The notes below the pieces were generated by a model. That model worked only from the letters and a program-made list of their open reading frames with translations, did not search any database and was not told the DNA's origin. 64,000 nt of DNA from a virus. Position numbers and translations under genes: made by a program. How positions within the stretch are numbered: the stretch's first letter is position 1; each line of letters starts with the position of its first letter. Of this stretch, positions 4,233 to 50,984 are shown one piece after another. The stretch spans positions 96,001 to 160,000 of IMG/VR virus record IMGVR_UViG_3300032046_005540. One strand, written 5' to 3'.

Positions 4233-5033
4233 TTAGAAATCCCAATTCTTTTTAAAATATGCTACTGCATTATGTTCATGGATGCTTTCATATGACATTA
4301 CTTTAATACTATATCCCTCAATGCCAGATATTTTATTTAAAGCAATAGCAACATCTCTTGCTACATCCTCTACAAATTTTGGATTTTTAAATGCCTTTTC
4401 CGTAACCCATTTTTCATCTGGGCGTTTTAAAACAGGATAAATATCGCAACTTCCCATTGACTCAATCAAAGAAACAACATCTTCAATCCATAAAGGTTTA
4501 CCTAAAAACTTCAATCTTGCAGTTACTATTGCTCTCTGATTATGAGCACCATATTTACTTATTGCTTTACTACAAGGGCATAAAGTAGTTATTGGAACTG
4601 AAACTTCAAGGTAAAAATCATATTTATTAGATGTTAATCGACCTACAAAAGCACAAGAATACCCTTGGATCCCATTTACTCTTTTTACTGGAGATTCTTT
4701 AGGAATAAAATATTTAAACCTAAAAACAGCATAAGCGTCCTTTGTTTTAAGTTTTCTTTTTAACTCTTCTAAAAATACTCTTAACTTTCTTGAATTTATT
4801 GTTTTATAACGATATTGCATTAAAACCTCAGAAAACCTTGACATATTAATCCCTCTAATCTCTTTCTCAAGGTCTCCATACATTGAAACAATCGCTTGAG
4901 TTGTTTGATATTGTCTCTTTTGTTTTTTAGCAACTAATATAGGAAAACTAACATCTTCAATACCTACTCTATAAAGAGGCACTCCTCGTTTATCTTTTAA
5001 CGCTTGAATATCCGGTAATTGTTCTTCAACCAT
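4233..5033 (-). CDS. folE2: GTP cyclohydrolase I, type IB (FolE2)
   Basis: LPDIQ, RVGI, RGINMSRF, TTLCPCSK.IS.YGAHNQR, LKRPDEK.VTE, NPKFVED, ESIH.HNA. Start at 5033 after AGGAG; the track gives 5102. Confidence 0.93.
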   Translation of the reverse strand: MVEEQLPDIQALKDKRGVPLYRVGIEDVSFPILVAKKQKRQYQTTQAIVSMYGDLEKEIRGINMSRFSEVLMQYRYKTINSRKLRVFLEELKRKLKTKDAYAVFRFKYFIPKESPVKRVNGIQGYSCAFVGRLTSNKYDFYLEVSVPITTLCPCSKAISKYGAHNQRAIVTARLKFLGKPLWIEDVVSLIESMGSCDIYPVLKRPDEKWVTEKAFKNPKFVEDVARDVAIALNKISGIEGYSIKVMSYESIHEHNAVAYFKKNWDF

Positions 5034-43264: not shown

Positions 43265-44677
43265 TTAACTTTTTACAGAAACAGTAACTACTCCAGCTTG
43301 GGCATAAGAATCCCAAGGAATTACTAAATTCCCATCTGCATCTTGTGTAATATTTCCAGTTGCTATATTTTCTTGAAACTTTGTAAGAGGAACTAAAACA
43401 TCATCTACTCCTTCAACTGCAGCAATTATTGCTATAATATCTGACTGCTGAACTTCCTGGCCAATTAAATAACTATTTAGTTTTTCTGTTATTGCAGTTT
43501 GAACGCTTGTAGCTAAAGTTGAAGCATCATACCCAGCAAATAATTCAACAGTAGCAGTAACATCTATCCAGCGAACTTTTGCTTCCTTAACTAAAACATC
43601 TGCACCAACAATCTTTGCACTATCTCCATCAACTGCTGCCTGTAAAGTAGAAATTAATGCATTATATACATAAGTTATTATAATAGTTTCACCATCAGCA
43701 AGAATTGGTAAAAAGTAAAATTCATCATTACCACGAACCGACCCAGCATAAACACTAGAATCTTTTACAATAGTATAATGAGTACCTTCAGTTAAATTTC
43801 CAGTAACACTTCCAACAGCAGAAAAACTTCCACTTACTGTATAAAGATGAACTGGTTGTGAATTAAAAGTATGATAGTCTGCTCCAGAATAATAAATAAA
43901 AGTATCAATTGATTGATTAGAAACTCCACCTCTTACATAAATATCGACAGCACCAAAAGATGATCTTAATGTATATGCTTCCCCAGGACCTACAACTAAA
44001 GCATCTGTAACATTTTCATCTTTCATTACTTGTTCATAATAACCTGCCTTTGTTCCTACATTATTTCCTAATAAAACACTTTTTACTCGTAATGTTAAAG
44101 CTGAAATAGATTCTTCATCTTCTCCTGTAGTTATTGTAGCTTCATTAAAACATCCAGAAACATCTGCAACAGCAGTAACTAAAACACAAATAGCACCAGC
44201 ATCAACATTAGCTTGGGATCCTCCAGCAACTGCTCTTATTGGAGCTTCTGCTTCCCACTGACCAGTATCAGGATTAAAACTTCCAGGATTTGATATAGTA
44301 ACAGTTTGTAATGTAACAAATTGTTGAGCACCAACTTCTGCTCCAGGTTTAGTACTTATTGTAGTTCCTGCTGGAATAGTTGCAGTAGTTCCAGATCTAT
44401 TATAAAAAGTTACTGTTCCTGTTGCCCGAACTGCGGCTTTTCTTTCCAGTTGTAAATTCTCTGCTAATTTTACTAAATCATCTGTAGAAGCTAAATCTGG
44501 AGATTGAGCTTTCGAAATTACATCCAATTCAGCATAAAAATTATCTAATTCATTTGCAACCGGATTAATTATAACATCTCTTGTAAAAGTTCCTTCTTTC
44601 GTGTCCACACTTGGATGTAGCCTTTTCAAAAAGTTAATCATACTTTGAACAATATTTGAAAAACTCTTTCTCGCCAT
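43265..44677 (-). CDS. baseplate J-like protein
   Basis: L..LA....L.RK.A..ATG.VTF, IPAGT, G...NV.AG.I, N.....GEDEES...L..R, G.VDIYV. Confidence 0.9.
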   Translation of the reverse strand: MARKSFSNIVQSMINFLKRLHPSVDTKEGTFTRDVIINPVANELDNFYAELDVISKAQSPDLASTDDLVKLAENLQLERKAAVRATGTVTFYNRSGTTATIPAGTTISTKPGAEVGAQQFVTLQTVTISNPGSFNPDTGQWEAEAPIRAVAGGSQANVDAGAICVLVTAVADVSGCFNEATITTGEDEESISALTLRVKSVLLGNNVGTKAGYYEQVMKDENVTDALVVGPGEAYTLRSSFGAVDIYVRGGVSNQSIDTFIYYSGADYHTFNSQPVHLYTVSGSFSAVGSVTGNLTEGTHYTIVKDSSVYAGSVRGNDEFYFLPILADGETIIITYVYNALISTLQAAVDGDSAKIVGADVLVKEAKVRWIDVTATVELFAGYDASTLATSVQTAITEKLNSYLIGQEVQQSDIIAIIAAVEGVDDVLVPLTKFQENIATGNITQDADGNLVIPWDSYAQAGVVTVSVKS

Positions 44678-44689
44678 AAATTTCTCCTT

Positions 44690-45601
44690 TTATAAAGAAA
44701 CACTGCCTTGTAATATTGCCATAGATCCTTCAACATTTGTTATTCTTACTTTAAAACCTAATTGCCTTGGATCTCCTTCAATTTCATAAATTTCAATATT
44801 TTCTATTTTATCAATTAATTCTTTTAAAGAAAATTTATATCCTCTCTCAATACCATCACGTTGTAAATAACGTAATCTTAAAACAGCATCCATAATAGAC
44901 TGTTTTAATTTAGTCTCTCGAAATCCTTCAGTTTGTAATGCTCCTACACTATTAATAACATAAGATCCATAATCTGCATAAAATGGATTATCACCTTTAG
45001 AAGTTATTGTAATTTTTACTAATTCTTGCAAAAGTTTTTCTACTTCACTAACAGTAAGAACATCGCCCAAAGGACTAAATTTTATATCATAATAAAAACC
45101 TTTTCCTAAACATCTTGGACAAGTATTTAAAGTAAATTTTCCGCTTGGTAAATTGTGATCACAAATATGCTCTAATTTAACATCATACAATACTAATTTT
45201 GTTTCATCTTTAGTTTTTAAACTAAAATTTGAAACAACTTTTGAAATTTTTGCAAACGAAAAAGAATCTGGCGATGTTGCTGGAATAATTTTTGCATCTG
45301 ATAAAATAATCTGTTGTCTTATATAAAAAACAGAGGCATCAGATATAATCGTTTGTTGCAAGGTACTTATAATATTAGCATTTGATATAATTAATTGTTG
45401 AACTCCTGTTTTAATATTAGCATCAGATAAAATAATTTGCTGAATATTTTCAACTAAAATATTAGTATCAGATATAATTAATTGTTGAATCGTTACTTTT
45501 ATATTTGCATCTGAAGTAATTAATTCTTGCCGTGTTTGAGGAACAAATTCATATGCACCTATATCATATCCACATATTTGTATTGGTCTAACATGAATCA
45601 T
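44690..45601 (-). CDS. gp25-like baseplate protein with N-terminal 14-aa repeats and CxH/CxxC motif
   Basis: EKLLQELVKITIT.KG.NPF...YGS gp25-like core; CDH...CPRCLG.G; six QQxIxSDANI repeats. Confidence 0.65.
   Translation of the reverse strand: MIHVRPIQICGYDIGAYEFVPQTRQELITSDANIKVTIQQLIISDTNILVENIQQIILSDANIKTGVQQLIISNANIISTLQQTIISDASVFYIRQQIILSDAKIIPATSPDSFSFAKISKVVSNFSLKTKDETKLVLYDVKLEHICDHNLPSGKFTLNTCPRCLGKGFYYDIKFSPLGDVLTVSEVEKLLQELVKITITSKGDNPFYADYGSYVINSVGALQTEGFRETKLKQSIMDAVLRLRYLQRDGIERGYKFSLKELIDKIENIEIYEIEGDPRQLGFKVRITNVEGSMAILQGSVSL
45285..45540 (-). repeat. six tandem ~42-bp coding repeats (QQLIISDANIxxxx)
   Basis: QELITSDANI, QQLIISDTNI, QQIILSDANI, QQLIISNANI, QQTIISDASV, QQIILSDAKI. 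Confidence 0.8.
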
Positions 45602-45612
45602 ATTATATCCTC

Positions 45613-46611
45613 TTACAAAGGTCGTGTATTACCATCATGATCGGTGTATATTCCAACATCTGTAGCAGTGCTTATACAAGGAGAAGATCCTAATAAATAA
45701 TAATCTGAATTCGAAACGTCAAAAAATTTTGGATCTCCTTCTTTTCCATTAGCTTCCTTCCCATTTAAAGAACCCGAGCCCGCCTGAAATACTGTTAAAT
45801 TATCAAATTCACAATCTCCTGCTTCAACCCAAACATCCACATAAACAAATTGCCCATTAGTATATTGATAAAAATTATAATCTATATGAAATTTATTATT
45901 CCAATCAGATACATGTTGGGGGTAATACTTAATCAAATAATAACTCAAAGAACTTAAAACTCCAGCAAAAATATTATTTTTAATATATATATCAAATAAT
46001 GCATTATTTGGAGAATATATCACTAAACATTGAGTATTATAGCTTGCATCCTTATCTGTTCCGAAGACAGTATTATAATAAAAATGCCCTGTTTCACCAT
46101 TAACAAAATAAAATGCTACAGCAGGTACAGAATGAATTTTGCCTTCTGCAAAAATATTATTATAAACCTGAACCTGATTACATCCATAACCCCCGCCCCC
46201 AAATTGAGAGGAATATTTTGTTCTACAATTTCTAACTATTGTATATATACCTACAATACTCACATCATTAATAGCACTACTCCCATTATCAACATAAAAC
46301 CCATCCATAGTAATATAATCTCTTTGAAAATTTGCTCTTTTAATTTTGATTTCTCCTGAATCTCCTGTATAAATTCCAAATCTATCAGCAATATATTCTA
46401 TTCTACTTCCAGAACTACCATTATTTACAGGTTGAATTCCTCTTTCTATATCAGTTGACTCAAGATAATAAGAACCTGATCCAACATATACAGTATCTCC
46501 AGCAACCATATTCATATTAGCATTTCTTAGAGTCTTCCAGGCTCCACTTCCACTCAGCCCATTATTGTAATCACTTCCACACCATCGTCTAATATAATAA
46601 GTGTAAGTCAT
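45613..46611 (-). CDS. right-handed beta-helix (pectin lyase-like) virion protein
   Basis: YY...G.D.N.G.S...AWKT, AGDTVYV..G.Y, NNIF, DP.F......Y.L...SPCI, D.DG..RP. Confidence 0.75.
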   Translation of the reverse strand: MTYTYYIRRWCGSDYNNGLSGSGAWKTLRNANMNMVAGDTVYVGSGSYYLESTDIERGIQPVNNGSSGSRIEYIADRFGIYTGDSGEIKIKRANFQRDYITMDGFYVDNGSSAINDVSIVGIYTIVRNCRTKYSSQFGGGGYGCNQVQVYNNIFAEGKIHSVPAVAFYFVNGETGHFYYNTVFGTDKDASYNTQCLVIYSPNNALFDIYIKNNIFAGVLSSLSYYLIKYYPQHVSDWNNKFHIDYNFYQYTNGQFVYVDVWVEAGDCEFDNLTVFQAGSGSLNGKEANGKEGDPKFFDVSNSDYYLLGSSPCISTATDVGIYTDHDGNTRPL

Positions 46612-49319
46612 ACTAACACCTTCCCAGTAATTTCTAACTCTTTTCCTTCTACTGTCAAAATATATATTGTGAATTCTAACTCCGTAGTAGAAATTTCTGT
46701 GATTTCAACTTTTTTAACACTGTCAATCAATTCTCTCGGCGAAAAATAACCGTCTCCAACACCTTTGTTTGCTTCTCTTTTTTGATATTTCATTAAATTA
46801 AAAATAGAATTTAGTAAATCTGATTTTATTATTGGTTTTAAATCATCTATTGGAACTTGTCCTACCCTCTTTTTAAGATTTGCTCCATATTCAGGGTGAA
46901 AAGGATTAAAATCTGTTATTGTAATCTTTTCTAATTCTTGAGCCAATTTTGTTTCATCCCATACTTGAGGAACTAATCCTCCAGCATCAAATTGAATATC
47001 ATAATAAAAACCAGTTCCTAAACATCTAGGACAAGTATTTAAAGTAAATTGACCTCTATTTGGTAAATAATGAGTACAAGGCCATTTTAATTGAGGTTCT
47101 CTATAAGGAGTTCTACGTATTAAAATAGGCCCTATTTTAGGAATACTCCAAGCAAATGGAGGTTCTATAGGTTTTATAAAAACTTCATCACATCCAATAT
47201 CAAATCCAAGTCCCATCGGGCGATTTTGTAAATCATAATCAATATAAACACCTACATTATAAGAAGACCCATCCCAATCTGTCCATTGTATAAGTGCATT
47301 ATCAACACAAGGAGAAAGCACTTTTATATGAAATCCATCTCCTTCAAACAAAGGATTTCCTTCATAAGAATTTAAATCTTGAGATGATCCTGATTGCCAT
47401 AAAGTTAAAGTATCCCAATAGTTTGCTCCTTCATATGCAAATACTTGTCCCACATCTCCATATTGATAAAAGTTACCATCAAAAATACATTCATCAATAG
47501 AACCTGCTGGTATTGAAATAACGGGGTCTGATCCAACGGAAGGAGCACTACTTTCTTTTACACATTTCATTATATTATTTATAACTATATCATACCTACT
47601 ACCATTAAAACAATAACCTCCTACAACTGCTCTTCCATGGGGATGAATAAAAGTATTATGAAAATAAAAATTAGCACAACCATTTGCAGTATACATTGCA
47701 TATCTAGCATAATTTATTGCTCCAAAAAATGGACTCGCCCACGCTACGTTATTAATAAATTTACATCCCCAAACCCCACCACAAAAAAATCCATGATCCA
47801 CTCTACATTGTTCAAATTCTAACCCATGTCCTCCCCAAGATACTACTCCTGCATGTACAGTATCAATATATGTAAAAAAATCATAAAAATAAATATTAGA
47901 AACTCTAATATGGTGTCTTGGCATCGTAAGATAATAAGGGTATTGGGCAGACATATTTAAAAAGAATTTTATTTTTATATCTCCAGGAAGATCTCCAGTA
48001 TAAATTCCTTTTTTATCTCCTACCCACGTGGTATATGATCCTGAAATTGATGCATAAAAGCCTTCATCATATGTTCCAGAACCTATATATACAATATCAT
48101 AAGGGCTAACAGTATCTGTAGCTTTCCTAATAGTTTTCCAAGCATTACTTGGACTTAAACCATCATTTGCATTATCTCCACTTGTTCTTACATAATAAGT
48201 TTTAGTATAAAGTTCTGGAATATCTTGAAATTCATAACATCCTTTACAAACTGAAGATCCAGATCTTAAATTATATTCTATATCAAAATATGGAACAAGA
48301 CCAAATGATCCAGTTGGAGCACCTGTGTTTACACAAGGAGATAAATTAAATAACTTGTACCCAGATGCATTTTGATAAAATCCTCTTAAATATGTCCATC
48401 CTTCTGTAGCATTTCCATCTAATCCTGTATCTGCTTGCCACTGTGTTAAATTTTTTATACCATAACCAAAATTTCCTTCATAATATTCATAATGATTATA
48501 ATCACAATATTGCCAAATTACATTTCCTCCACAGTAATAATTATATACTCCACCACATTTATTACTAAAATTAATGAAAATATTATTAATGCTTGAAACA
48601 TATATTGGATCAGTTGCAGTCATAGCAACCACTCCAGTCACCCCGACCACAGCAGACATTTGCAAAGTGCAATTAATTATTTTTAAATCAATAGCTACAT
48701 GAAAAGAATTGTTATTATTTGAGGAAACACACCCAATAATTTTTTCTGCATAACCCAATAAACAATTTGTAAATTGACCATTGGCATTACCAATACCACT
48801 ACTTTCTGCAATTTTACATTTATCTAAATATCCTATACAATTTCCAGGATTTTTACCAACAGAACTTTCTATATTTACCGAACCTCCATAATAATAAATC
48901 CCTCCAGACCATACACCATAATGTGAAAAAATATCAAAACCCTCAACATTTATAACAGCATCTTGAATTATAACAAAATCAACTTGCACAGGTCCAGGAG
49001 TATCATCTGTAAGCCATTGACAATTTGGATCTGCTAAAAAATAAACAGGAATTGTTGAAAGCCCTCCTTGTTTTGCCCAGATATGGTTTCCTGTAGAACT
49101 ATAAGGATCTTCTCCAGATGTATAAGTTCCAGGACCTACATGAATAGTATCTCCTTCTCTTATAATTCCTGAATAAATTGCTGCATTACACGGAGCAAAT
49201 GTCTGCCAAGCATCGTCTTTACTAGTTCCACTATTTGAATCATTTCCATTTTGTTTAGAAATATACCAATCGGCAGCTATTTCAGCGTTAGAAGTAATAA
49301 TTTGTTGTTTAATAACCAA
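46608..49319 (-). CDS. tandem beta-helix protein fused to a C-terminal gp25-like domain
   Basis: Two G.D.N.G.S...AW.T beta-helix units, each ending SPC...D....R....(D/K)GC.E; then CTH..CPRCLG.G and KLAQELEKITIT..NPFHPEYG. Confidence 0.7.
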   Translation of the reverse strand: MVIKQQIITSNAEIAADWYISKQNGNDSNSGTSKDDAWQTFAPCNAAIYSGIIREGDTIHVGPGTYTSGEDPYSSTGNHIWAKQGGLSTIPVYFLADPNCQWLTDDTPGPVQVDFVIIQDAVINVEGFDIFSHYGVWSGGIYYYGGSVNIESSVGKNPGNCIGYLDKCKIAESSGIGNANGQFTNCLLGYAEKIIGCVSSNNNNSFHVAIDLKIINCTLQMSAVVGVTGVVAMTATDPIYVSSINNIFINFSNKCGGVYNYYCGGNVIWQYCDYNHYEYYEGNFGYGIKNLTQWQADTGLDGNATEGWTYLRGFYQNASGYKLFNLSPCVNTGAPTGSFGLVPYFDIEYNLRSGSSVCKGCYEFQDIPELYTKTYYVRTSGDNANDGLSPSNAWKTIRKATDTVSPYDIVYIGSGTYDEGFYASISGSYTTWVGDKKGIYTGDLPGDIKIKFFLNMSAQYPYYLTMPRHHIRVSNIYFYDFFTYIDTVHAGVVSWGGHGLEFEQCRVDHGFFCGGVWGCKFINNVAWASPFFGAINYARYAMYTANGCANFYFHNTFIHPHGRAVVGGYCFNGSRYDIVINNIMKCVKESSAPSVGSDPVISIPAGSIDECIFDGNFYQYGDVGQVFAYEGANYWDTLTLWQSGSSQDLNSYEGNPLFEGDGFHIKVLSPCVDNALIQWTDWDGSSYNVGVYIDYDLQNRPMGLGFDIGCDEVFIKPIEPPFAWSIPKIGPILIRRTPYREPQLKWPCTHYLPNRGQFTLNTCPRCLGTGFYYDIQFDAGGLVPQVWDETKLAQELEKITITDFNPFHPEYGANLKKRVGQVPIDDLKPIIKSDLLNSIFNLMKYQKREANKGVGDGYFSPRELIDSVKKVEITEISTTELEFTIYILTVEGKELEITGKVLV

Positions 49320-49877: not shown

Positions 49878-50984
49878 TTATATTACAATTCTTAACTCAT
49901 TTTTTACTTCTTCTGCATTATTCAAAATATCATCTTCCCAAAACCTTAATAAAACAAATCCACTATCTTTTGCTACCTTATTTTTAATAAAATCTCTTTG
50001 TTTTATTTCTTTTTGCCTTTCATTTAATTTACTAAACTTTTTAGGATTCCCATGCCAGTAGTCTCCATCTACTTCTACCAAAATGTTTGAATTACTAATA
50101 TAAAAATCAAATGAATATCCTTTCAAACGATATTGATGTTCAAAGGGAATGTTTAATTCATTAAGAATCTCTTTCATTTTAAGTTCTGGTTTAGTATCTT
50201 TAAAAGGACCTTTATACTTTTTTATATTTTGTGCTCCTATTTCTTTATACGTCCTTAAAACATACCCATTTCTTTTAACAACACTTGTTATCGTAGCATT
50301 ACCACAACTCCACTTTTGTGCTAAAGTAGTAGTGCTTGGCTTCTCTTCTGAAAAATATTCATTACAAATTTCTACTTCTTGTTCTTTTGAAAATTTATGT
50401 TTCTTTTGTTTTGTTTCCTCAGAAAATTTTCTACCTGTTAATGTTTTACTTATTTTTTCTTTTGTAACATTGAGCATAGGGTTATGTTTTTTACCTTTAG
50501 TTGAATTACTTACTTTTTTTACTCTTTCATCAGTTTCTTTAGTAAGGTCTTTATTCCAAGCTTTACGTCCCATACAAGATATACTTAAATTATTTCTTTG
50601 TTCTTCAGAACGTTTTTGTCCTTTAAGTTTATCACTTCCTCTTCTTACTCTTTCATCTGTTTCTTTTGTTAATCCAATATTCCAAGCTTTTTGACCTTTG
50701 TGACATTCACTACTATTTCTTAATTTATATCCATTCTTTTTAATGATATTACTTATAGTTACATTACTACAATTCCATTTTTTAGCTAAAACATATGTGT
50801 TTACTTTTTTATCAGAAAAATATTCAGCACAAATTTGCAATTCTTGCTCTTTTGTAAATGTACAAAGGTTTCTTTTATGTTCTTCAGAAAGAGGAATATT
50901 CTTATTCCAGGCTTTTTGACCTTTATGTGATATACTTGATTTTCTTTTATGTTCTTCAGTTTGTTTATACCCTTTTATAAACAT
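49878..50984 (-). CDS. free-standing endonuclease: NUMOD3/HTH repeats + DUF559/Vsr-like domain
   Basis: EEHKRK, AWNKDLTKETDERV, GPFKDTKPELKM, VEVDGDYWH, LLRFWE. Confidence 0.82.
   Translation of the reverse strand: MFIKGYKQTEEHKRKSSISHKGQKAWNKNIPLSEEHKRNLCTFTKEQELQICAEYFSDKKVNTYVLAKKWNCSNVTISNIIKKNGYKLRNSSECHKGQKAWNIGLTKETDERVRRGSDKLKGQKRSEEQRNNLSISCMGRKAWNKDLTKETDERVKKVSNSTKGKKHNPMLNVTKEKISKTLTGRKFSEETKQKKHKFSKEQEVEICNEYFSEEKPSTTTLAQKWSCGNATITSVVKRNGYVLRTYKEIGAQNIKKYKGPFKDTKPELKMKEILNELNIPFEHQYRLKGYSFDFYISNSNILVEVDGDYWHGNPKKFSKLNERQKEIKQRDFIKNKVAKDSGFVLLRFWEDDILNNAEEVKNELRIVI

What the first reader, a model, noticed from the sequence alone, without database searches (positions are those of the whole stretch)
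45540..45660. Beta-helix C-terminal cap split across two genes
Seen: the 332-aa beta-helix ends ...IYTDHDGNTRPL*. After 11 nt containing an RBS (GAGGA), the next ORF starts MIHVRPIQICGYDIGAYEF. The intact motif D..RP.G...DIG..E (choice-of-anchor-Q-like) is present in the 903-aa paralogue (DYDLQNRPMGLGFDIGCDE). The split has its own RBS and a duplicated RP, so it looks evolved rather than erroneous. Inference: the gp25-like protein completes the fold in trans and docks the adhesin non-covalently.
Basis: partly seen in the sequence, partly recalled or inferred. Interest (0 to 1): 0.7.

Follow-up and report, generated by a model that had tools for sequence, protein, structure and literature searches.

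The report
Phage beta-helix gene split at its cap
In a 168-kb tailed phage, a gene for a sugar-binding or sugar-cutting beta-helix that relatives carry fused to a baseplate protein has been cleanly split in two inside the helix's end-cap; the split is conserved and under selection, so the two proteins most likely snap back together without a covalent link.

Summary
ORF1 (45613-46611, minus strand, 332 aa) ends ...DHDGNTRPL-TAA. An 11-nt spacer GAGGATATAAT follows. ORF2 (44690-45601, minus strand, 303 aa) then starts MIHVRPIQICGYDIGAYEF, in the -1 frame.

It is not an assembly error. The same stop, Shine-Dalgarno sequence (SD) and start occur in five independent assemblies carrying three ORF1 alleles. 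Both ORFs are under purifying selection (dN/dS about 0.3 at dS 0.4-0.56).

All other relatives found carry the cap motif unbroken:
- 597-599-aa orthologues that are 80-82% identical to ORF2;
- a second paralogue family, which includes the window's 903-aa protein;
- the nearest relative of the ORF1 helix.

So this is a derived gene fission, at about position 45 of 58 of the choice-of-anchor-Q domain profile.

ORF2 continues as six QQxIxSDAxI repeats, a CxH...CxxC knuckle and a gp25-like sheath-initiator domain, just upstream of Baseplate_J. The helix fold is Pel9A/PL9-like.

Completion of the cap in trans is inferred, not shown:
- canonical cap residues in ORF2's first 22 residues are invariant, while non-motif positions vary (p about 0.009);
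- the complex prediction gave only weak support (0.41 against 0.01 for the best control).

Frameshift, ribosome bypass and pseudogene readings are unlikely. This is a new variant of the known phage "genes-in-pieces" theme, of moderate interest. The scan also noted this stretch when it was read in an overlapping window.

The parts
45613..46611 (-). ORF1, 332 aa: right-handed beta-helix (Pel9A/PL9-like) that lacks the last ~12 residues of its C-terminal capping segment
   Evidence: (PF22842 precomputed for P0017). It is 30% identical to the paralogue helix, whose model matches PL9 lyases at Z 19.6-19.8. dN/dS against L009 is 0.32.
45616..45642 (-). First half of the cap motif, D-H-D-G-N-T-R-P-L (ORF1 residues 324-332), followed by TAA at 45613-45615
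   Evidence: It matches choice_anch_Q profile positions 18-45 of 58 only.
45602..45612 (-). 11-nt intergenic spacer GAGGATATAAT holding the Shine-Dalgarno sequence GAGGA, 6 nt before the ATG
   Evidence: It is conserved, with one substitution, in L009, and identical in L011, L012 and L021.
45536..45601 (-). ORF2 residues 1-22, MIHV-RP-IQICGY-DIGAYEF-VPQ: second half of the cap motif, the proposed docking peptide
   Evidence: Motif positions are invariant between the window and L009 while 6 of 11 non-motif positions differ (p 0.0085).
45272..45535 (-). ORF2 residues ~23-110: six tandem ~14-15-aa QQxIxSDAxI repeats (spacer or stalk)
   Evidence: The same repeats occur in the fused relatives and in a 960-aa open frame near the end of the genome.
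44690..45178 (-). ORF2 residues ~142-303: CxH...CxxC knuckle plus gp25-like (sheath-initiator) domain
   Evidence: It lies directly upstream of Baseplate_J.
46608..49319 (-). 903-aa paralogue: two beta-helices, an intact cap and a gp25-like domain in one polypeptide
47184..47240 (-). Intact cap motif DYDLQNRPMGLGFDIGCDE of the paralogue (residues 694-712)
   Evidence: It is modelled with block-mean pLDDT of about 95 up to model residue 340 and 83 for residues 341-350.
43265..44677 (-). Baseplate_J (gp6-like) wedge gene immediately downstream of ORF2
   Evidence: PF04865 at 1.7e-22; phrog_6 at 7e-52.

Best explanation
An ancestral single gene encoded a baseplate-anchored glycan-recognising protein. 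Its parts, in order, were a Pel9A/PL9-like right-handed beta-helix, a choice-of-anchor-Q-type C-terminal capping segment, a QQxIxSDAxI repeat stalk, a Zn-knuckle and a gp25-like sheath-initiator domain. In this phage lineage the gene has been split inside the capping segment. ORF1 keeps the helix up to D-x-D-G-x-x-R-P. ORF2 is translated from its own SD and ATG 11 nt after ORF1's stop, probably coupled to ORF1. It begins R-P-x6-D-I-G-A-Y-E-F and continues as stalk and gp25-like domain. The proposed mechanism is that ORF2's first ~20 residues pack onto the open C-terminal end of the ORF1 helix. This would complete the cap in trans and tether the helix non-covalently to the baseplate, reproducing the architecture of the fused relatives. 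Shown: the split, its conservation, selection on both halves, and fused relatives. Inferred: separate translation and binding in trans.
For: 1. The junction (TAA, GAGGA, 11 nt, ATG) is present in five assemblies from several samples, with three ORF1 alleles.
2. Window against L009: ORF1 has dS 0.56 and dN/dS 0.32; ORF2 has dS 0.38 and dN/dS 0.27.
3. The junction resembles all other stop-SD-ATG junctions of the operon.
4. Fused forms exist. P0021-24 (597-599 aa) are 80-82% identical to ORF2 over 96% of it. L010, P0025-27 and the whole type-B paralogue family have the motif unbroken. The closest intact relative of the ORF1 helix, P0034, is also unbroken. Among 179 proteins collected, only this lineage is split.
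5. In ORF2's first 22 residues, all 10 canonical motif positions are identical between the window and L009, while 6 of 11 other positions differ (p 0.0085). The 13 codons for YDIGAYEFVPQTR differ only by two synonymous changes.
6. In the AF2 model of the intact paralogue helix (mean pLDDT 86.3), the residues beyond the split point are confidently placed (block means 95 and 83). PL9 lyase alignments span to model residue 345.
7. Complex prediction, ORF1 with ORF2 residues 1-45: weak support, score 0.41, best of 3 controls 0.01. The mark was reached by 58 of 80 solved complexes and 2 of 110 mismatched pairs. At 0.60 or under it was reached by only 7 of those 80 solved complexes and by both mismatches that passed. 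The runs agree in at least 85% of contacts, and the partner's pLDDT is at least 40 (41-44). My own alignments were used, so the counts hold only roughly. Halves of a split gene may pass by likeness to intact solved folds.
Against: The complex prediction is only weak, and the partner's own fold is uncertain. ORF1 is predicted to fold confidently even with unrelated partners (pLDDT 84-85 against 90-91), so the cap may not be structurally required. DSSP shows the cap as an ordered loop rather than a regular strand, so the interface would be small. Only three alleles exist, which is too few for covariation. There are no protein-level data. ORF2's gp25-like assignment is sub-threshold for ORF2 itself.
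Confidence: 0.6

Rival explanations
1. Real fission, but no reconstitution. ORF1 is an independent helix protein, either soluble or attached through another surface. ORF2's N-terminal peptide is a vestige, or has another role.
For: ORF1 is modelled confidently without its partner (controls at pLDDT 84-85). Relatives exist whose gp25-like protein carries no helix or cap peptide at all (P0004, P0008, the ~201-aa open frames in L017 and L018). So the peptide is not needed for the gp25-like function. The complex score is only weak.
Against: The peptide keeps the full canonical consensus (YDIGAYEF) across dS of about 0.4, while neighbouring positions drift. The two halves always co-occur and are adjacent. 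All other relatives keep helix and anchor physically joined.
Confidence: 0.22
2. Recoding joins the two ORFs. One route is a -1 frameshift near CCU-UUG-UAA, which would add about 12 extra residues. The other is a T4 gene-60-like ribosome hop from Pro CCU to Pro CCA over 35 nt, which would restore D-x-D-G-x-x-R-P-x6-DIGAYE exactly.
For: ORF2 is in the -1 frame, and that frame is open from 9 codons before its ATG. The duplicated Arg-Pro gives a synonymous take-off and landing pair (CGA-CCT and AGA-CCA), conserved in L009.
Against: There is no X-XXY-YYZ slippery heptamer. The region has no significant RNA structure (z 0.11). The stop is not adjacent to the CCU codon, because UUG intervenes. Landing from the stop-adjacent Leu codon on downstream UUA or UUG runs into stops within about 10 codons (sequence). 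A strong SD at canonical spacing and an ATG, like all neighbouring genes, explain expression without recoding.
Confidence: 0.05
3. Artefact or dying gene: an assembly or sequencing error, or a recent pseudogenisation of a fused gene.
For: A different relative (L023) does show a break at a G9 homopolymer that looks like an error, so such artefacts occur in this gene family.
Against: Five assemblies share the junction. There is no homopolymer. A 35-nt difference with stop, SD and ATG is not a simple indel. Both halves show dN/dS of about 0.3 at substantial dS.
Confidence: 0.03

Closest known systems
Fused orthologues in related metagenomic phages (P0021-P0024, 597-599 aa; also L010, P0025-27)
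   Same: Same locus, directly upstream of Baseplate_J. Same order of helix, cap, QQxIxSDAxI repeats, CxH...CxxC knuckle and gp25-like domain. 80-82% identity to ORF2 over 96% of it.
   Different: One polypeptide. The helix allele is only 31% identical to ORF1. The cap is shorter and lacks Pro (DYDYDSRSSDIGADE), whereas the split lineage keeps the canonical D.DG..RP and RP......DIGAYE.
Phage 'genes-in-pieces': T4 topoisomerase gp39/gp60, Aeromonas phage Aeh1 NrdA split by mobE, phage 25 gp43A/B (reviewed in PMC2988022)
   Same: A reading frame that is contiguous in relatives is split into two polypeptides that must reassemble. A free-standing homing-endonuclease-like gene (NUMOD3 plus DUF559/Vsr) sits in the same operon.
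   Different: The known cases are enzymes, and their halves are separated by an endonuclease gene or an untranslated insert. Here a structural receptor-binding protein is split by only 11 nt, at the terminal cap of a beta-helix.
Choice-of-anchor Q domain (NCBIfam NF041518) at the C-terminal end of right-handed beta-helix proteins
   Same: The two halves together spell the domain's D.DG..RP......DIGAYE signature. Bacterial relatives of ORF1 (P0020, P0091, P0173) hit the model at 43-54 bits.
   Different: Neither ORF reaches the cut-off alone. ORF1 covers profile positions 18-45 only, and the remainder is on another polypeptide.
gp25-like sheath initiators (Pfam PF10934; solved examples Afp9 6rao_H, PA0617 6u5b_a, 9euf_L)
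   Same: Gene position upstream of Baseplate_J. 9 of 21 family members hit PF10934, best E 3.5e-8. Profile hits to solved sheath initiators all fall on the same stretch.
   Different: ORF2 itself is sub-threshold (19-20 bits against 32.9). It carries an N-terminal stalk and a CxH...CxxC knuckle. There are two paralogues in one baseplate operon.
Pel9A / PL9 rhamnogalacturonan lyases and phage tailspike beta-helices
   Same: Fold of the paralogue helix: 5olq_A Z 19.8 (rmsd 3.4, 260 aligned) and 1ru4 Z 19.6 (rmsd 3.7, 256 aligned).
   Different: 12-16% identity. Catalytic residues were not examined. Typical tailspikes attach through N-terminal adaptors, whereas here the C-terminal end faces the anchor.

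Membership tests
Choice-of-anchor Q domain (NF041518) | Match to the NCBIfam model above its 25-bit cut-off | tested here: not met
   ORF1 C-terminus: 13.7 bits, E 0.057, profile positions 18-45 of 58. ORF2 residues 1-60: no hit. Canonical relatives: 43-54 bits.
Choice-of-anchor Q domain (NF041518) | Contiguous D.DG..RP......DIGAYE signature in one polypeptide | tested here: not met
   The signature is divided between the ORF1 C-terminus and the ORF2 N-terminus. This is the finding itself.
Right-handed parallel beta-helix, Pel9A/PL9-like | Beta-helix fold similar to solved PL9 enzymes | tested here: met
   The model of the paralogue helix (pLDDT 86.3) matches 5olq_A at Z 19.8 and 1ru4 at Z 19.6. 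ORF1 aligns with it end to end at 30% identity. ORF1 itself was not modelled separately with AF2.
Right-handed parallel beta-helix, Pel9A/PL9-like | Catalytic Ca-binding Asp residues and catalytic Lys of PL9 lyases | not tested
   No residue-level superposition was available.
gp25-like sheath initiator (PF10934) | Pfam match above the gathering score (32.9 bits) | tested here: inconclusive
   ORF2: 19-19.8 bits, E 8e-4 to 1.5e-3. 9 of 21 aligned relatives match at E<=0.01, best 3.5e-8.
gp25-like sheath initiator (PF10934) | Gene immediately upstream of the gp6-like Baseplate_J gene in a contractile-tail baseplate operon | tested here: met
   The arrangement is the same in L009-L016.
gp25-like sheath initiator (PF10934) | Handshake strands that pair with the first sheath disc | not testable with these tools
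   This needs a virion or baseplate structure.
Phage genes-in-pieces (split by a mobile element) | Contiguous in relatives, split here, both halves retained | tested here: met
Phage genes-in-pieces (split by a mobile element) | Homing endonuclease gene or other insert between the halves | tested here: not met
   Only 11 nt lie between the ORFs. The nearest endonuclease-like gene is 49878-50984, three genes upstream.
T4 gene-60-type translational bypass | Identical take-off and landing codons, a stop directly 3' of the take-off codon, and a take-off stem-loop | tested here: not met
   CCU and CCA are synonymous, not identical. UUG lies between CCU and UAA. Fold z-score is 0.11.

The most novel reading that the evidence does not exclude
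The N-terminal ~20 residues of a sheath-initiator-like baseplate protein act as a detachable cap and dock for a beta-helix receptor-binding or depolymerase protein. This would be a so far undescribed way of attaching a phage receptor-binding module: through its C-terminal end, by fold complementation. It could make the helix stable only once it is mounted on the baseplate, and it could serve as a natural plug-in tag for exchanging helices.
Probability: 0.5. Interest if true: 0.55.

Novelty: new variant of a known kind. Interest (0 to 1): 0.45.

Why it matters
Receptor-binding proteins of tailed phages are normally attached by N-terminal adaptor domains. A naturally selected split that leaves a ~20-residue capping peptide on the baseplate protein and a cap-less beta-helix on a separate polypeptide would be a compact non-covalent docking principle. 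It is a natural fragment-complementation experiment on the beta-helix C-terminal cap. It would be useful for understanding how such caps stabilise helices, and possibly for engineering exchangeable receptor-binding modules. It also adds a structural-protein example, with no intervening mobile element, to the short list of phage genes-in-pieces.

Tried and rejected
- AF2 model of the fused orthologue P0021 from a 15-row alignment: pLDDT was below 50 for residues 268-524, so it says nothing about the cap.
- Origin of the 35 nt between the two Arg codons as a diverged tandem duplication of the downstream cap-coding sequence. The best local match is GGATATAATAT to GGATATGATAT. Shuffle p is 0.045, and 127 of 2844 genome windows score as well. 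Not significant.
- PDB sequence search with a canonical cap region: no solved chain carries the motif, so its structural role could not be read from a crystal structure.
- Literature searches for 'choice-of-anchor Q' and 'gene fission' plus 'tailspike' returned 0 papers.
- tblastn of ORF1 against GenBank phages: no match. ORF2 matched only Bacillus phage G gp187, 38% identity over the gp25-like part.
- Further scans for more split-lineage members found only contigs already known, apart from L021.
- A fused version of the ORF1-type helix was looked for among 532-2000-aa relatives of ORF2 and in the any-length representative search. None was found. The searches have limited sensitivity.
- Intein or split-intein reading rejected: no intein-sized segments flank the junction.

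Full report
**Observation**

The window is bases 96001-160000 of a 168,267-bp IMG/VR virus record of about 30% GC. All genes discussed here are on the minus strand.

- ORF1 (45613-46611, 332 aa) ends ...IYTDHDGNTRPL, with TAA at 45613-45615.
- The next 11 nt are GAGGATATAAT.
- ORF2 (44690-45601, 303 aa) starts MIHVRPIQICGYDIGAYEF.
- ORF2 is in the -1 frame relative to ORF1, and 35 nt separate the two Arg codons.
- The 903-aa protein encoded just upstream (46608-49319) contains the unbroken DYDLQNRPMGLGFDIGCDE at residues 694-712.

**What the parts are**

ORF1 aligns end to end with the helix part of the 903-aa paralogue (30% identity, residues 372-702). It also aligns with the helix part of the fused relative P0021 (31% identity). 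In both cases it stops exactly at their R(P).

An AF2 model of the paralogue's second helix plus cap has mean pLDDT 86.3. Its best solved look-alikes are:
- the glycoside hydrolase BT_1002, 5mqp_C (Z 20.5);
- the PL9 rhamnogalacturonan lyase 5olq_A (Z 19.8, rmsd 3.4, 260 aligned);
- Pel9A, 1ru4 (Z 19.6);
- then PL6 lyases, GH136 enzymes and phage tailspikes.

Bacterial relatives of ORF1 that carry the canonical D.DG..RP.G..YDIGAYE match NCBIfam choice_anch_Q at 43-54 bits. ORF1's C-terminus matches only profile positions 18-45 of 58, at 13.7 bits. The break therefore falls about three quarters of the way through that domain. In the model, the residues beyond the break point are confidently placed (block means 95 and 83), but they form an ordered loop rather than a strand.

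After the 22-residue cap peptide, ORF2 has six QQxIxSDAxI repeats. A CxH...CxxC knuckle follows, then a C-terminal domain that is weakly gp25-like:
- Pfam PF10934: 19-20 bits for ORF2 itself;
- 9 of 21 aligned relatives match, best E 3.5e-8;
- profile hits to solved sheath initiators all fall on the same stretch.

The next gene is Baseplate_J. The wider operon holds an M23-peptidase hub-like protein and three paralogous fibre-like proteins. It also holds a NUMOD3 plus DUF559/Vsr homing-endonuclease-like gene.

**Is the split real?**

The same arrangement, with TAA, GAGGA, 11 nt and ATG, occurs in:
- L009 (Ga0315296);
- L011, which is the same contig as L013, L022 and L025 (Ga0373630);
- L012 (Ga0373629);
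- L021 (Ga0315289).

These carry three distinct ORF1 alleles, 74-76% identical in protein. Between the window and L009, ORF1 has dS 0.56 and dN/dS 0.32, and ORF2 has dS 0.38 and dN/dS 0.27.

The junction is indistinguishable from the other stop-SD-ATG junctions of the operon. There is no homopolymer and no significant RNA structure (z 0.11). An assembly error or a fresh pseudogene is therefore very unlikely.

**Direction of change**

All other relatives found have the motif in one chain:
- P0021-24, 597-599 aa, 80-82% identical to ORF2 over 96% of it;
- L010, whose frame is open at the 5' contig end;
- P0025-27;
- the second paralogue family: P0012, P0014, P0015, P0028, P0030 and the ~900-aa proteins;
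- P0034, the closest intact relative of the ORF1 helix, at 44% identity.

Among 179 proteins collected, only this lineage ends at RP or starts at the RP...DIGAYE peptide. In the phage's whole genome, the two half motifs are unique and adjacent. The split is thus a derived fission.

The fused orthologues carry a different helix allele and a shorter cap without Pro. So the ORF1-type helix, with its canonical cap, was probably acquired by module exchange before or together with the fission. This is an inference.

The N-terminal module of this gp25-like family is generally variable. It can be absent, repeats only, F5/8-type-C, other domains, or one or two helices.

**Do the halves reassemble?**

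Evidence bearing on this:
1. The two halves strictly co-occur.
2. In ORF2's first 22 residues, all 10 canonical motif positions are identical between the window and L009, while 6 of 11 other positions differ (p 0.0085). The codons for YDIGAYEFVPQTR differ only synonymously.
3. The cap residues are an integral, confidently modelled part of the intact fold.
4. Complex prediction of ORF1 with ORF2 residues 1-45 gave weak support: score 0.41, best of 3 controls 0.01.
   - The mark was reached by 58 of 80 solved complexes and 2 of 110 mismatched pairs.
   - At 0.60 or under it was reached by only 7 of those 80 solved complexes and by both mismatches that passed.
   - The runs agree in at least 85% of contacts, and the partner's pLDDT is 41-44.
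   - My own alignments were used, so the counts hold only roughly.
   - Halves of a split fold can pass by likeness to intact solved folds.

Against reassembly: ORF1 is modelled confidently even beside unrelated partners (pLDDT 84-85), and the interface would be small. I put cap completion in trans at about 0.6.

**Rivals**

- *Fission without reconstitution* (0.22). The peptide would be a vestige. This is hard to square with its selective conservation.
- *Recoding* (0.05). A -1 shift lacks a slippery heptamer and a stimulatory structure. A gene-60-like hop from CCU to CCA would restore the canonical motif exactly. But the stop is not adjacent to the take-off codon, the two codons are only synonymous, and a hop from the stop-adjacent Leu codon lands in frames that soon terminate.
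- *Artefact or pseudogene* (0.03).

**Comparison with what is known**

Phage genes-in-pieces are documented: T4 gp39/gp60, Aeh1 NrdA split by mobE, and phage 25 gp43A/B. Their halves reassemble into working enzymes (PMC2988022). Here the protein is structural, no mobile element lies between the halves, and the cut is in the terminal cap of a beta-helix. An endonuclease-like gene is nearby and is variably present among relatives. A past insertion and loss is therefore conceivable, but it is not shown. A test for a tandem-duplication origin of the 35 nt was not significant.

**Verdict**

Docking in trans is the best-supported mechanism but remains unproven. It is a new variant of a known kind, of moderate interest.

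Noticed in passing
window 46608-49319 and 44690-45178 (minus strand): The baseplate operon has two gp25-like paralogues, each with an invariant CxH...CxxC knuckle before the gp25-like domain. Simpler relatives (L017, L018) show only one gp25-like open frame, about 201 aa, upstream of Baseplate_J, and in L016 the second paralogue is an undecorated ~198-aa open frame.
   Followed up: partly
window 49878-50984 (minus strand): A free-standing homing-endonuclease-like gene (NUMOD3 plus DUF559/Vsr-like, 368 aa) lies inside the baseplate operon. It is absent at this place in L011. A DUF559-type gene sits directly upstream of the 901-aa paralogue in L009. In L015, an open frame with a similar N-terminus lies between the two gp25-like genes; it was not scanned.
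   Followed up: partly
L011:8001-9886 compared with window 44690-46611: Mosaicism. ORF2 and the last ~90 codons of ORF1 are (nearly) identical in nucleotides between the window and L011, while ORF1 codons 1-240 have dS 0.5-0.7. The most variable part (dN 0.23-0.37) is the helix middle, codons 61-240. A recombination breakpoint therefore lies inside ORF1, not at the gene boundary.
   Followed up: partly
L023:4478-5786, G-run at about 5013-5021: In another relative, an F5/8-type-C domain gene and the repeat plus gp25-like gene overlap by 47 nt and are broken at a run of nine G. P0005 (403 aa) is the fused version. This is probably a sequencing error, or a phase-variable tract.
   Followed up: partly
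G000:C1 about 165380-167980 (outside the window): A 960-aa open frame near the end of the genome is made largely of the same ~15-aa QQxIxSDAxI repeats that form the stalk of ORF2.
   Followed up: no
L011:8001-8963 and L021: The 320-aa gene call for the L011-type ORF1 probably starts 9 codons too late. The open frame carries an upstream MTTYYIRRS... that matches the family N-terminus.
   Followed up: yes
window 46608-46611: The ORF1 start overlaps the stop of the 903-aa gene (ATGA-type overlap). Together with the 11-nt ORF1-ORF2 spacer, this suggests that the three genes are translationally coupled.
   Followed up: no
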